From assembly GCA_965203095.1 (NCBI GenBank), contig OZ241877.1, positions 1,716,580 through 1,780,579 on the forward strand: a stretch of 64,000 nt of DNA, in the 5' to 3' direction. Source of the DNA: Bdellovibrionales bacterium. Its GTDB lineage: Bacteria > Bdellovibrionota > Bdellovibrionia > Bdellovibrionales > UBA1609. Position numbers: made by a program. Shown here piece after piece: positions 1-64,000 of the stretch; within the stretch, counting starts at the first letter, position 1, and each line of letters starts with the position of its first letter.

Positions 1-3000
1 AGTTGGGACAAGCACAGGAGGAATCCTGGCCTGTGGGCTGGCTGTAGGTGTTCCCATCAATAAAATTGTGGAGCTTTATTTCAAAAAAGGAAAAAAGATA
101 TTCACTGACCCTTTTCCTGCTAAAAAGACTGTAAAAAAAATATGGTGGATAGTTAAAAATAGTCGCAAGGCTGTAAATTCCAATAAAGCTCTGAGCCAAG
201 AGCTAAAAGACATATTTCACAATAAAACATTGGGACAGGTTTATAATGAGAGAAAAATTGGCCTGTGTATTACTGCTGTCAATTTAATGGATCATTCTCC
301 CAGAGTTTTCAAAACTCCCCATGATCCATTAAAAAATATGGACAATAATAGGAGATTAACGGATATATGTTTGGCCTCTTCCTCTGCTCCCATATTATTT
401 CCCATTGCAAATATTCCTGATCCGGAAAGCAGTAATATTTATGAAGGTTTTGTGGACGGTGGTTTATGGGCAAATAATCCTGTTTTAGTGGCTTTGGTGG
501 AAGCTATTATATGTTCTAAAAAAGAGCAACCGGTGGAAATTATATCCATTGGTTCTTGCTCTCCTCCAAAAGGTCAAACAGTTTTGGAAAAAGACATAAA
601 CAAAGGCTTTATAGGATGGCGGGCGGGTATTGGACCTATGGAGTTGGCAATGGATGCTCAGTCAAAATCCAATCTTTTTGTTAGTGATTTTTTATCTTCT
701 CAGTTAAAAAAATTAGGAAAACATATTACAATCTATCGTTTAAAGCAAAAAGCTCCTTCTGCGGAGCAGGTAAAATTTCTTTCTATGGATCAAGCGGATG
801 AGCAAACTTGTTCAATGTTAATAAAATGGGGGAAAAAAGATGCAGGGGAAATTTATGGACAGATAATCAGAGAAAATAAAAACAACATATTATACTGGTC
901 TTGTTTGAATTTTCAGGTTTCGATGACATGAAAATTATCAGTAATAAGCATGGACAATTCAGCCCTGTATTTTCTAACACCTCTTAAAAACAGCATCAAC
1001 TCTTTACGAAAAGTTTTAAGATCTGAAAAATACACATTAGCCATTGTCTTCTTCTTTACAAATTTCCAAAACCTCTCAATAGGATTCAAATTAGGAGAAA
1101 ATGGAGGCAAATACAGCAAAGTAATATCCAAACTTTTCGCTAAATCCCTCACCTGAAAGGCCCTGTTATATGGTGCATTGTCTAAAACCAAATACAACCT
1201 TTTATCCCTCATAGGCTGTCTCGCCCTCACAGCTCGCAATAACTCCTGCATTGAATTTTTATTAACCCTCTCACAGCTTCTACTGACAAAATCTAAACTA
1301 TTTATCTCTATCGCACCATTTATATTCACCCGCTCACGACCTGAATTAGTTTTAACCTTAAACTCCACCCCCTTCTTAATCCAACCCGATGATATTACAG
1401 GATTGAGCATAGGATGAGTTGAATCCGCAAAATACACTAAATCACCTCTCTTTTTTATCCTGCGATATCTTTGAATAAACACCTTCTGCTTCTCAATATC
1501 AGCCTTCCCAGGCACACCCTTTGGCTTCTTATATGAAAAATCTAACTTGTGAAGTAAAGCCGTCATTCCATTCACAGTATAAACAACCCCAAATGTCTTT
1601 TGAACATATAAAACAACTGCCTTTGTTGTGGGATATACCTTTGACTCCAACTCCAAAACCAGTTTCTTCCGTTGTTCCTCAGATAAATACGACATGCGAC
1701 CTCTATGATCGTCATAAACCAACCTCGACAAACCTCCTTCTTCATAACGCCTTTTGCAGTTTCTGATAGTTCCTTCATCAAAAAATAAAAATCTCGCAAT
1801 ATCGGTGACAGACTCTCCACTATCCAGCAACAAAATAACCCGGATACGATCCGCTCGCCTACGATTCCTTTCCAAACGAAGAAAAGTTAAAAGCTCTGCT
1901 TTTTGCTTGCCAGTTAAAAATGAGTTCATAGAAACATATTATAGAACATCCAAAAGATTTGGAAAACTCATAATGCCAAAAACTAAACCTTTATCAAAAA
2001 AACTTGATTTTTTAAATCAAACCAGTATAAAAACAATTTTTACTAATTTGCCAAACCTAAAAGGAGGGAATAATCATGGCTAATATACAAAAGCAGTTAG
2101 AGAGATTTCATAAAAATATCAAGGTTGAATCCAGCGAGTTAATAGAAAAGCGGGATATTATTGAAAAGAAAATAAAAAAATCTCTTTCTGAAGACAATAA
2201 ACCTATTCCAAATCTTCTGAATCAAGGAAGCTATATATATGGAGTGGGAATAAAACCTGCATCAGGAGAAGATTATGATATTGATGTAGGGCTTGATTTT
2301 AATATCAAGTCCTCAGACTACAATGCGGAAGAAGTCAGAAAATGGGTTTATGATGCAATTAAAAAACACACAGATGAAGTGCAAAGCAAAGGGCCCTGTA
2401 TTCGGGTTATATATCAGGTAGGTTATCATGTTGATCTTGTATGCTATGCCAGATATAAGAACAATGATTTAATCGAAAATTTTCAGTTAGCTCATAAAAA
2501 CGGTTCCTGGATAGCTTCTGATCCTAAAAAAATAAAAGATCACATCAAAAAGTCCAGAGAGAGATTTAAAGACACAAAAGACAGCAGTGGCTCAGATCAA
2601 CTGCAAAGGGTAGTTCGGTATCTCAAAAGGCGGAATGATTTAGCTTTTCCAGGTGAATCTAATGACAAGCCTATTGGTTTGGCTATTTTGCTTTACTGTA
2701 TTGATGCCTTGCGAGATCCTGTTTATGATTCTCAGGGCAATTTAGATGACTTGCAAGCCCTTATATATATTTCTGAAAGAGCAAAAAACAGTAGTAGAAT
2801 TTGTGTCAAAAAACCAGATAATGGGGAAGATATTTTTAGCAAAATAAGCGAACAAGGAATGGAAAAACTTATCACAAAATTTCAAAAATTACATGAAGCT
2901 TTATTGGATGCAAGAAACTCTAATCATTTAGAGGATGCCTGTAAAATAATGAGAGAGCAGTTTGGAAATGATTTTCCATTGGAAAAAAATAATGAAGATA

Positions 3001-63000: not shown

Positions 63001-64000
63001 GGGAACGACGGTGGATTCCCGTTTTCGCGGGAGCCAGAAAGTCCGGGGGACTTTCTGGCAAACTCACAGGAATGACTGGTTTTCGCGGGAATGACTGTTT
63101 ATCTGCTTTTGCCCAAAGCCACAGCATGAGGGTCCAAGGTATTGCCGTCCCGAAATGCTGTGGTCTTTGGGCAAAGAAACTAAAGAATAGGCTTTTTAAC
63201 AAGCTTTGTGGGAAGAATAAAGACTTATGGATTCCCGCTTTCGCGGGAGCCAGAAAGTCCGGGGGACTTTCTGGCAAACTCACAGGAATGACTTGGTTCA
63301 CGGGAATGGCGGATGGTGCCTCAAAAGAGACTGGCCTTTGGGCAAAAAAACTAAAAAATCGCCTTTGCAAGAGTAGGGGGGATAAAGCACTGTGTCAAAA
63401 AGCCTTTTGGGCTTTTTCGGCTGGACCCCCGCAAATCTTTGCCAAAAAGCCCCTGTTTTTTAACAACTATGTTTGTCTAAAAACCATCAAGGGTATTGGC
63501 CCCTTGCTATAAGATAGCCCTCTCCTTTTGCTTGGAACTCCAGTTTATGTCGTCTGAATGTCGTCTAAAAAAAAGAGGGGAATGGCTTTTGAGCTGTTTT
63601 TGTCCAAAGGTCGTTTCATGAGGGTCCAAGGTATTGCCGTCCCGAAATGGAACGGCCTTTGGACAAAAAGTTAAGGAATAAGGCTTTTCAATAAGTTTTT
63701 GCGGAAAAGATTGAGATCTCTGGATTCCTGTTTTCGCAGGAGCCTAAAAGCCCAGCGGGCTTTTAGGCAAAGAAAACAAACCAAATGCTGTCAGCGAAAT
63801 AGCGAACACATACAGGAATGACTGTTTATATGCTTTTGCCTAAAGCCACAGCATGAGGAGCCAAGGTATTTTTCCCGCAAACAAGATGGACTTTTGCTTT
63901 TGCAATCTATATAAATGCAGACTTTTTTGTCTTAAAGCCTAAAAAATTGAGATGAATCGGCTTAAAAGCATAAAAAATAATGAGATTTTAGCCTCCATTG

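What a model noticed while it worked through the whole genome (the two positions that open the first line are those of the whole stretch)
1..64000. No signal recognition particle pathway: Ffh, FtsY and 4.5S RNA all absent
Six-frame searches of the whole genome find no SRP54-type GTPase (neither Ffh nor FtsY), no Ffh M domain and no SRP RNA, although SecYEG, SecA, SecDF-YajC, YidC, Tat and many polytopic inner-membrane proteins (Nuo, ATP synthase, cytochrome oxidase, transporters) are encoded; the same holds for all 28 other genomes of three genera of family UBA1609, while nearly all other genera of the family have both genes. I read this as a genuine, clade-wide loss of co-translational SRP targeting in a bacterium with a 1.8-Mb genome and a full respiratory membrane proteome, which must insert its membrane proteins by an SRP-independent route. 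SRP is regarded as universal outside organelles and a few tiny in [...]
Evidence so far: Tables: no SRP54, SRP54_N, SRP_SPB, FtsY or SRP RNA row. Six-frame PF00448: 0 matches at E<=0.001 in G000 and 9 of 9 other genus genomes, versus 3-5 matches in 10 of 11 genomes of other genera (the 11th, genus g30, only a 21-bit sub-threshold hit) and 14 of 14 controls. Whole family, 109 genomes, E<=1e-40: g1 0/9 (+G000), g29 0/15, g30 0/4; other 32 genera 77/80, mostly 2 matches (Ffh+FtsY); small-genome genera g14 (1.2-1.3 Mb) and g11 (1.6 Mb) keep both. PF02978 M domain: none over cut-off in G000 + 4 near-complete genus genomes (best 14.7 bits), 14/14 controls. RF00169: 0 at E<=1 in those 5 genomes; RF00169/RF01854 hit one place in SRP-positive G011 (39.6 bits, E 3e-7; 36 bits) but nothing The finding spans contig positions 1 to 1780579; this window holds only 1716580 to 1780579 of it. 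[...]
(Added by a program. Inside this text positions count along the whole contig: contig position 1,716,580 is position 1 of the stretch shown here. "Call 12" and the like, gene names such as g00115 and contig names such as C1 are that model's own, and its searches are not shown. The text may have been shortened before it was handed on; [...] marks where a part breaks off. The agent that wrote the report below was given it as the finding of a first reader that could run no searches.)

Follow-up and report, generated by a model that had tools for sequence, protein, structure and literature searches.

The report
SRP-less bacteria with membrane-anchor ribosome tails
A group of uncultured Bdellovibrio relatives has lost the signal recognition particle that normally delivers membrane proteins, and most members carry short membrane-anchor-like helices on floppy tails of ribosomal proteins, which may hold their ribosomes at the membrane instead (not yet tested at the bench).

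Summary
The loss is real. G000 has no Ffh, FtsY or 4.5S RNA, and the ancestral sites are closed. All 29 genomes of g1+g29+g30 lack the proteins; the 23 placed in a tree form one clade. SRP loss has precedent: Leptospira, Dehalococcoides, apparently SAR86 (PMC4758666).

Two things appear new. (1) A second, independent loss in the phylum: 104 of 104 genomes of ten families, up to 5.4 Mb, lack the Ffh M domain. (2) In the first clade, bL9, uL29 or uL3 carry polar tails with a basic, amphipathic, MinD-like segment. A rule hits them in 20 of 24 readable genomes (G000: uL3), in 0 of 38 tails of SRP-positive relatives and in 30 of 65 close bL9 homologues (4.9 expected).

Best reading (0.5): ribosomes are tethered to the membrane and dock directly on SecYEG/YidC. 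Lipid binding is untested, and the second clade shows no such tails. The scan noted related ribosomal tails in an archaeon (e1-7773573), not this loss.

The parts
1..64000 (.). The window holds no SRP gene and no part of the proposed mechanism. The finding is genome-wide; the rows below that repeat 1-64000 lie OUTSIDE the window and give their places on contig C1 in the text.
9906..10010 (-). Best PF00448 look-alike inside the window: a Walker A fragment (11.9 bits) in a SIR2-like/STAND NTPase; chance resemblance
1..64000 (.). Outside the window, candidate anchor: rplC, uL3 of 432 aa (C1:1462987-1464285, minus strand) with an N-terminal polar tail of about 210 aa holding the basic amphipathic motif KKAFSKIKSLFG (C1:1464160-1464195). 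bL9 (C1:934465-934980, plus) has a 22-aa tail without the motif in G000 but carries it in most other g1 and all four g30 genomes.
   Evidence: (found in 1% of shuffles)
1..64000 (.). Outside the window, vacated ffh site: the ABC ATPase + permease pair (C1:234809-236490, plus) is followed by a histidine phosphatase gene, and rpsP (C1:448143-448376, minus) is preceded 75 bp upstream by ribBA; in most SRP-positive relatives read, ffh lies between the permease and rpsP.
1..64000 (.). Outside the window, vacated ftsY and 4.5S RNA sites: smc (C1:666727-670257, minus) is followed directly by a LysM lipoprotein gene (C1:665302-666546); only 12 bp lie upstream of dnaX (C1:890738-890749), where SRP-positive G010 has the RNA gene.
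1..64000 (.). Outside the window, retained machinery: secY C1:1454383-1455696 (-), secE C1:169612-169992 (-), secG candidate C1:1619151-1619465 (-; motif only), secA C1:1028633-1031257 (-), yajC-secD-secF C1:118209-121240 (+, contiguous), yidC C1:987322-988917 (-, no long basic C-tail), trigger factor C1:547358-548623 (+).

Best explanation
Shown: the common ancestor of genera g1, g29 and g30 deleted ffh, ftsY and the 4.5S RNA gene and kept one ordinary copy each of SecY, SecA and YidC. Shown: in this clade the large-subunit proteins bL9 (all three genera), uL29 (g29) or uL3 (G000, G031) carry polar tails of about 35-330 residues that contain a short basic, Phe/Trp/Leu-rich amphipathic segment, conserved while the linker around it drifts. 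Inferred: the segment binds the inner membrane as the MinD membrane-targeting sequence does, so ribosomes, and polysomes more strongly by avidity, stay within reach of the membrane whatever they translate. Inferred: a nascent transmembrane segment then reaches SecYEG or YidC by direct ribosome docking, helped by SecA, with no signal-reading carrier. This is the solution mitochondria reached by other parts. The loss itself I put at 0.97; the confidence given is for the tether being the compensation.
For: Loss. Closed sites: in G028 the ABC permease gene is 70 bp from rpsP, where relatives have ffh between them; smc and dnaX sites in G000. One clade, support 1.00 (75 genomes) and SH-aLRT 100 (32 genomes), sister to SRP-positive G008. 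Tails: a fixed rule hits 24 of 97 clade tails (3.8 expected from shuffles), 22 of them in bL9, uL29 or uL3, against 0 of 38 tails in 30 SRP-positive genomes. A profile built only from uL29 tails picked the bL9 tail as its single hit in the G028 genome (E 6), which is how bL9 was found. Database homologues: 30 of 65 close long bL9 (4.9 expected; nearly all within 20 residues of the C-terminus), 1 of 55 distant long bL9 (0.6 expected), 35 of 37 long uL29 (3.1 expected), and 24 of 117 uL3 N-tails (3.1 expected). Specificity: 0 of 11 RpoA tails, and 6 of 116 polar segments in the G000 proteome against 7.1 expected. Partial hand-over: G000, G080, G082 and G088 lack it on bL9 but have it on uL3 or uL29; of 15 same-contig bL9/uL3 pairs none has both. 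Literature: insertion from membrane-bound mRNA needs no SRP in E. coli (PMC10066597, abstract); the MinD sequence is a transplantable anchor (PMC8155659, passages); mitoribosome tethering is proposed to have replaced SRP (PMC8321541, passages).
Against: No binding experiment. The second SRP-less clade has no such tails on the proteins read (0 of 29 tails in 12 genomes; bL9 without a tail in 26 of 26 loci), so SRP can be lost without them. No motif was found in G029 and only a weak Trp-rich uS17 segment in G030; not every ribosomal protein was read. The rule was written after the motifs were seen and changed once (one search gave 23 of 86 against 1 of 28). SRP-positive tails are fewer (1,976 against 7,008 residues) and hold few hydrophobic residues. 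The comparison rests on one clade, so gain and loss coincide once. 35 of 65 close bL9 homologues have no hit, and the SRP status of the database homologues is unknown. bL9 and uL3 are not at the tunnel exit (recalled). The motif's position in bL9 differs between genera, so common origin is not shown. Similar segments can bind proteins rather than lipid.
Confidence: 0.5

Rival explanations
1. The loss is absorbed by routes all bacteria already have: co-translational SecA, membrane-bound mRNA, slow translation and direct ribosome-SecYEG/YidC contact. The helices serve something else (ribosome positioning, storage or a protein partner) or only help at the margin.
For: The second clade lacks SRP with normal bL9 and uL29. 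E. coli survives ffh deletion when translation is slowed (PMC7844537, passages). G029 shows no motif.
Against: Does not explain why the motif sits on three different large-subunit proteins only in the SRP-less clade, is absent from RpoA, bL21, uL4 and uL15 tails, and tends to be on one or another. SecA, YidC and trigger factor show no change.
Confidence: 0.35
2. An unrelated, unrecognised protein acts as a signal-reading targeting factor in place of Ffh/FtsY.
For: Not excluded: whole proteomes of relatives could not be compared. Leptospira has a private gene in its sec locus (PMC4758666).
Against: No clade-wide specific gene in the S10-spc-alpha regions of 61 genomes, none evident in the yidC regions printed (6 genomes), at yajC-secD-secF or at the vacated sites.
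Confidence: 0.12
3. The absence is an assembly or binning gap, or the genes are too divergent to detect.
For: The 29 genomes are 83-95% complete by markers; G000's main contig has no terminal repeat.
Against: 29 of 29 genomes, many in one or two contigs, lack both genes yet have SecY; flanking genes are joined in mid-contig; family-specific profiles find nothing, while the most divergent full-length pair listed, in G011, still scores 213 and 191 bits.
Confidence: 0.03

Closest known systems
SRP-less Leptospira, Dehalococcoides and (apparently) SAR86 (PMC4758666, passages)
   Same: Ffh, FtsY and SRP RNA all missing, Sec system kept.
   Different: Another phylum, lost twice within it, with SRP-positive genera in the same family. 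No extra gene in the sec locus. A ribosome-borne anchor is not mentioned in the passages read.
[quoted passage not shown]
   Same: SRP lost; stable ribosome-membrane association proposed as the substitute.
   Different: Here YidC has no ribosome-binding tail; the anchor would be a lipid-binding helix on core bacterial ribosomal proteins; the cell still makes mostly soluble proteins and uses SecYEG.
MinD C-terminal membrane-targeting sequence (PMC8155659, passages)
   Same: Short basic amphipathic segment, usually terminal, after a flexible linker. The likeness in residue pattern is recalled; no alignment to MinD was made.
   Different: Carried by bL9, uL29 and uL3; sometimes internal; no ATP-driven dimer switch; lipid binding untested.
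Laboratory SRP bypass: Streptococcus mutans YidC2 (seen as a reference title only; details recalled) and E. coli slow-translation suppressors (PMC7844537, passages)
   Same: Membrane proteins are inserted without SRP.
   Different: Natural, fixed loss; single YidC without a basic tail; translation rate not measurable here.

Membership tests
Canonical bacterial SRP pathway | Ffh (NG GTPase plus M domain) | tested here: not met
Canonical bacterial SRP pathway | FtsY receptor GTPase | tested here: not met
Canonical bacterial SRP pathway | 4.5S RNA (RF00169) | tested here: not met
   (3 clade genomes negative, G010 positive)
Naturally SRP-less bacteria (Leptospira type) | All three SRP parts absent while SecYE, SecA and YidC are kept | tested here: met
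Naturally SRP-less bacteria (Leptospira type) | Novel low-complexity membrane protein gene inserted next to yajC | tested here: not met
   yajC-secD-secF contiguous in G000; the gene upstream of yajC is a small soluble one about 670 bp away
MinD-type membrane-targeting sequence | Short segment with a hydrophobic face, net positive charge and high hydrophobic moment | tested here: met
   (rule: 11 residues, at least 4 of F/W/L/I, at most 1 D/E, net charge at least +1, moment at least 0.45)
MinD-type membrane-targeting sequence | At a protein terminus behind a flexible linker | tested here: inconclusive
   terminal in most bL9; about 30 residues from the end in most uL29; internal in g30 bL9 and G000 uL3
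MinD-type membrane-targeting sequence | Folds into a helix on and binds anionic lipid; transplantable | not testable with these tools
   single-sequence model of uL3 uninformative (mean pLDDT 42.7)
Mitochondrial-type ribosome tethering | Insertase (Oxa1/YidC) with a ribosome-binding basic C-tail | tested here: not met
   13 SRP-negative and 8 SRP-positive YidC ends alike
Mitochondrial-type ribosome tethering | Ribosomes stably membrane-bound regardless of substrate | not testable with these tools
   needs fractionation or tomography

The most novel reading that the evidence does not exclude
A bacterial clade replaced the SRP cycle by fixing a lipid-binding helix to the large ribosomal subunit, gained on the same branch as the loss (on bL9) and later handed to uL29 or uL3, so that its ribosomes are membrane-tethered by default, a mitochondrion-like solution built from core bacterial ribosomal proteins. 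A second clade of the same phylum lost SRP independently and solved it another, unknown way.
Probability: 0.45. Interest if true: 0.9.

Novelty: new variant of a known kind. Interest (0 to 1): 0.78.

Why it matters
How the few natural SRP-less bacteria insert polytopic membrane proteins is open; the Leptospira passage read could only guess at cell shape or an orphan gene. Here the loss has close SRP-positive relatives, it happened twice in one phylum, and one of the two clades offers a small, portable candidate part that can be tested in E. coli. If the tails work as anchors, they show that proximity of the ribosome to the membrane can replace signal recognition in a whole cell, mirror a step proposed for mitochondria, and give a simple part for membrane-protein production or minimal cells. 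Ffh and FtsY are also widely used as universal marker genes (recalled), so these genomes' completeness is probably underestimated.

Tried and rejected
Extra or altered SecA, YidC or trigger factor: SecA single and of normal size in 22 of 22 clade genomes searched, YidC single in 25 of 25, termini ordinary; trigger factor not found in 5 of 25 clade genomes and 2 of 63 others, not followed up. The acidic lipoprotein at the ftsY site as a replacement receptor: it is a LysM protein; its presence in SRP-positive relatives was not checked. Loss of uL24: the family search found none over the cut-off in 88 genomes, but G000 has a short divergent uL24 behind bL28, and the pattern is family-wide, so unrelated to SRP. 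Softer transmembrane segments: mean top-helix hydropathy of SecY 1.95 (23 clade-1 genomes) and 1.83 (13 clade-2) against 1.91 (39 SRP-positive); YidC 1.82 (13) against 1.86 (8); no consistent shift in two proteins. bL21 tails: long in both groups, no motif in 11 and 10. uL10, uL11 and bL12 where read in 5 genomes: no tails. Motif profile A2 on G000, G029, G030, G008, G011 and five genomes of the other class: apart from G000's own uL3, no ribosomal protein among the three hits read; most other hits lay in short open frames and were not read. A shuffle test on hydrophobic moment alone did not separate most uL29 motifs from their Lys-rich background. Single-sequence structure prediction of uL3 failed. 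Medium PF00448 hits in the second clade: three read, all FlhF beside flhA; two not read. PMC3358033 gave only a reference-list hit, so the SAR86 precedent rests on PMC4758666. No complex prediction and no read mapping were run.
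Full report
1. The observation. G000 has two contigs (1,780,579 and 17,191 bases, 38% GC, no N). 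PF00448 finds only Walker A fragments (best 16.5 bits, cut-off 22.7). I took 9 Ffh and 7 FtsY proteins from SRP-positive members of the family and searched G000 with tblastn and with profiles at full sensitivity: best E 0.17 and 0.013, and 0.39 and 0.029. RF00169 gives 61.9 bits in G010 and nothing at E<=1 in G000, G086, G092 or G148. SecA, YidC, SecD, SecF, YajC and SecE are confirmed by Pfam, SecY, and SecG by motif only. A simple hydropathy count gives 54 of 1,444 ORFs of at least 100 aa with six or more helices. UBA1609 is a family of Bdellovibrionales (PMC10469934, passage); bins of it are reported from vent sponges (PMC8518922, passages).

2. The sites are closed. In most SRP-positive relatives read the order is ABC ATPase, permease, ffh, rpsP, and smc, ftsY (part of that output was cut). 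In G000 the flanks are in mid-contig with other neighbours. In G028 the permease gene ends 70 bp before rpsP: ffh is cleanly gone. G010 has the 4.5S RNA gene upstream of dnaX; in G000 only 12 bp lie there.

3. One loss in the family. Of 109 genomes, 79 have a match over the cut-off; none of the 29 of g1, g29 and g30 does, although all 29 have SecY. A tree of 18 ribosomal proteins plus SecY (75 genomes, 3,055 columns, midpoint root; six left out as partial or frameshifted: G001, G006, G013, G075, G078, G084) puts the 23 clade genomes included in one group, support 1.00, sister to SRP-positive G008. IQ-TREE on 32 of the 75 gives SH-aLRT 100. These are long branches, so attraction is not excluded.

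4. A second loss in the phylum. In 401 genomes drawn from the phylum, 333 match at E<=1e-45; every sampled genome of the own order outside this clade matches, but families f21 (0 of 42) and f22 (0 of 14) and several singletons do not (7 candidates scored per genome). With all candidates scored in five of them, each has one medium hit; the three I read are FlhF, following flhA. The Ffh M domain is found in 22 of 127 genomes of that class: 0 of 104 in ten families, 22 of 23 in the other four. Thirteen genomes from six of the ten families form one group, support 1.00, sister to SRP-positive f27; four families were not placed. Sizes are 1.9-5.4 Mb. The class is unnamed in the tools and I did not name it.

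5. Precedent. PMC4758666 (passages) states that Ffh, FtsY and SRP RNA are missing in all Leptospira, in Dehalococcoides and apparently in SAR86. So the phenomenon is known. PMC7987157 (passages) calls SRP nearly ubiquitous. Nine searches (listings and abstract openings) showed no paper on SRP loss in Bdellovibrionota or on membrane-targeting helices on bacterial bL9, uL29 or uL3; the library lacks most subscription journals. No supplements were read.

6. What changed instead. SecA and YidC are single and ordinary, and so is trigger factor where found. The ribosomal proteins are not. All 11 g29 uL29 proteins read have an 80-180 residue Lys-rich C-tail with a motif such as KKWFGFFG (my note says 12, the count is 11). 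G000 and G031 have a similar segment in the uL3 N-tail. A profile of the uL29 tails returned one hit in G028, weak (E 6), in the tail of bL9. I then read bL9 in 18 clade genomes. The segment is present in six of nine complete g1 proteins (for example GGFFKKLFGKK at the end in G026; absent in G000, G029 and G030; G025 is cut by its contig end), in four of four g30 and in one of four g29. It is absent in nine of nine SRP-positive family members, G008 included.

7. How much more than chance. I set a rule after seeing the motifs and changed it once. The first version gave 23 of 86 clade tails, 1 of 28 SRP-positive and 0 of 29 in the second clade. The second, with bL21 tails added, gave 24 of 97 (3.8 expected from shuffles), 0 of 38 (0.2) and 0 of 29 (0.3). 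Two of the 24 are weak hits on uS5 and uS17. The other 22 cover 20 genomes; G027 and G028 have a clear motif that the rule misses; G029 and G030 have none on these proteins; uL29 and bL9 of G078 and G084 were not covered, and G025, G076 and G077 are not in the count. The fixed rule was then applied to database homologues: 30 of 65 close long bL9 (4.9 expected; three are proteins already seen), 1 of 55 distant long bL9 (a fusion; 0.6 expected), 35 of 37 long uL29 (seen before the rule was set), and 24 of 117 uL3 tails (3.1 expected; 3 of 120 had no core match; two hits were already seen and up to three may be mis-called starts). Their SRP status is inferred from similarity only. Controls: RpoA tails 0 of 11; polar segments across G000 6 of 116 against 7.1 expected. 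In 15 same-contig pairs, 8 have the motif on bL9 only, 3 on uL3 only (two doubtful), 4 on neither and none on both; this is suggestive only. Among 48 solved bL9 sequences matched, the matched stretch never extends into the tail.

8. Mechanism. Shown: the loss, the tails, and their restriction among the genomes read. Inferred: lipid binding. PMC8155659 (passages) describes the MinD sequence as a transplantable amphipathic anchor, weak as one copy in E. coli and sufficient in B. subtilis; a polysome would carry many. Inferred: that tethering is enough. In E. coli, proteins made from membrane-bound mRNA insert without SRP (PMC10066597, abstract), and slower translation lets ffh be deleted (PMC7844537, passages). 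Mitochondria are proposed to have lost SRP once ribosomes were fixed to the membrane (PMC8321541, passages). bL9 motifs in all three genera and none in the sister place the gain on the branch of the loss by parsimony, but their positions differ and this is one event.

9. Against. The second clade lost SRP and shows normal uL29 lengths in nearly all of 84 matches across the class, no motif in 29 tails and no bL9 tail in 26 loci. G029 has no motif in the S10-spc-alpha proteins, bL9, bL21, bL27, uL10, uL11 or bL12.

10. Verdict. The finding is a new variant of a known kind: two further natural losses of SRP, one with a testable candidate substitute. Confidence 0.97 in the loss, 0.5 in ribosome tethering as the compensation. 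Interest 0.78.

Noticed in passing
window 11751-16144: Exact tandem duplication with a period of 2,197 bp, covering a lumazine-synthase-like gene and most of proS: one full ProRS (576 aa) and one truncated copy (478 aa). Recent duplication or assembly artefact.
   Followed up: partly
window 913-11081: Defence-island-like stretch: DDE transposase, a DncV-like cyclic-nucleotide synthase (2076-3083) followed by an unassigned 231-aa gene, and a SIR2-like/STAND NTPase (8595-11081).
   Followed up: partly
window 30915-33854: Topoisomerase VI subunits B and A in tandem.
   Followed up: no
window 16779-19718: 979-aa membrane protein with about 11 helices fused to a spermidine synthase domain.
   Followed up: no
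L063 (G030), uS5 and uS17: uS5 of 273 aa ends in a folded-looking helical extension that recalls a winged-helix domain (recalled, not tested); uS17 of 282 aa has a Trp/basic segment in its tail.
   Followed up: no
L209:3108-3380 (G000 C1:631107-631379): uL24 is missing from the spc operon in the family genomes inspected (G000, G010) and in G000 is short and divergent behind bL28; PF17136 is below cut-off in 88 of 88 genomes. uL30 was not found between uS5 and uL15 in G000.
   Followed up: partly
L040:8516-10880 (G011): In this 1.6-Mb SRP-positive genome ftsY and ffh are adjacent, are the most divergent full-length pair listed for the family, and FtsY has no detectable N domain: possibly a pathway under relaxed selection.
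   Followed up: no
G031, G077, G082, G085, G088: Trigger factor N domain not found in five SRP-less genomes, three of them single-contig; G082, G085 and G088 have the uL29 tail and G031 the uL3 and bL9 tails.
   Followed up: no
L131, L132, L136-L146 (second SRP-less clade): Most uL16 (up to 189 aa) and uS19 (up to 126 aa) carry short extensions without the motif; the clade's substitute for SRP is unknown.
   Followed up: partly
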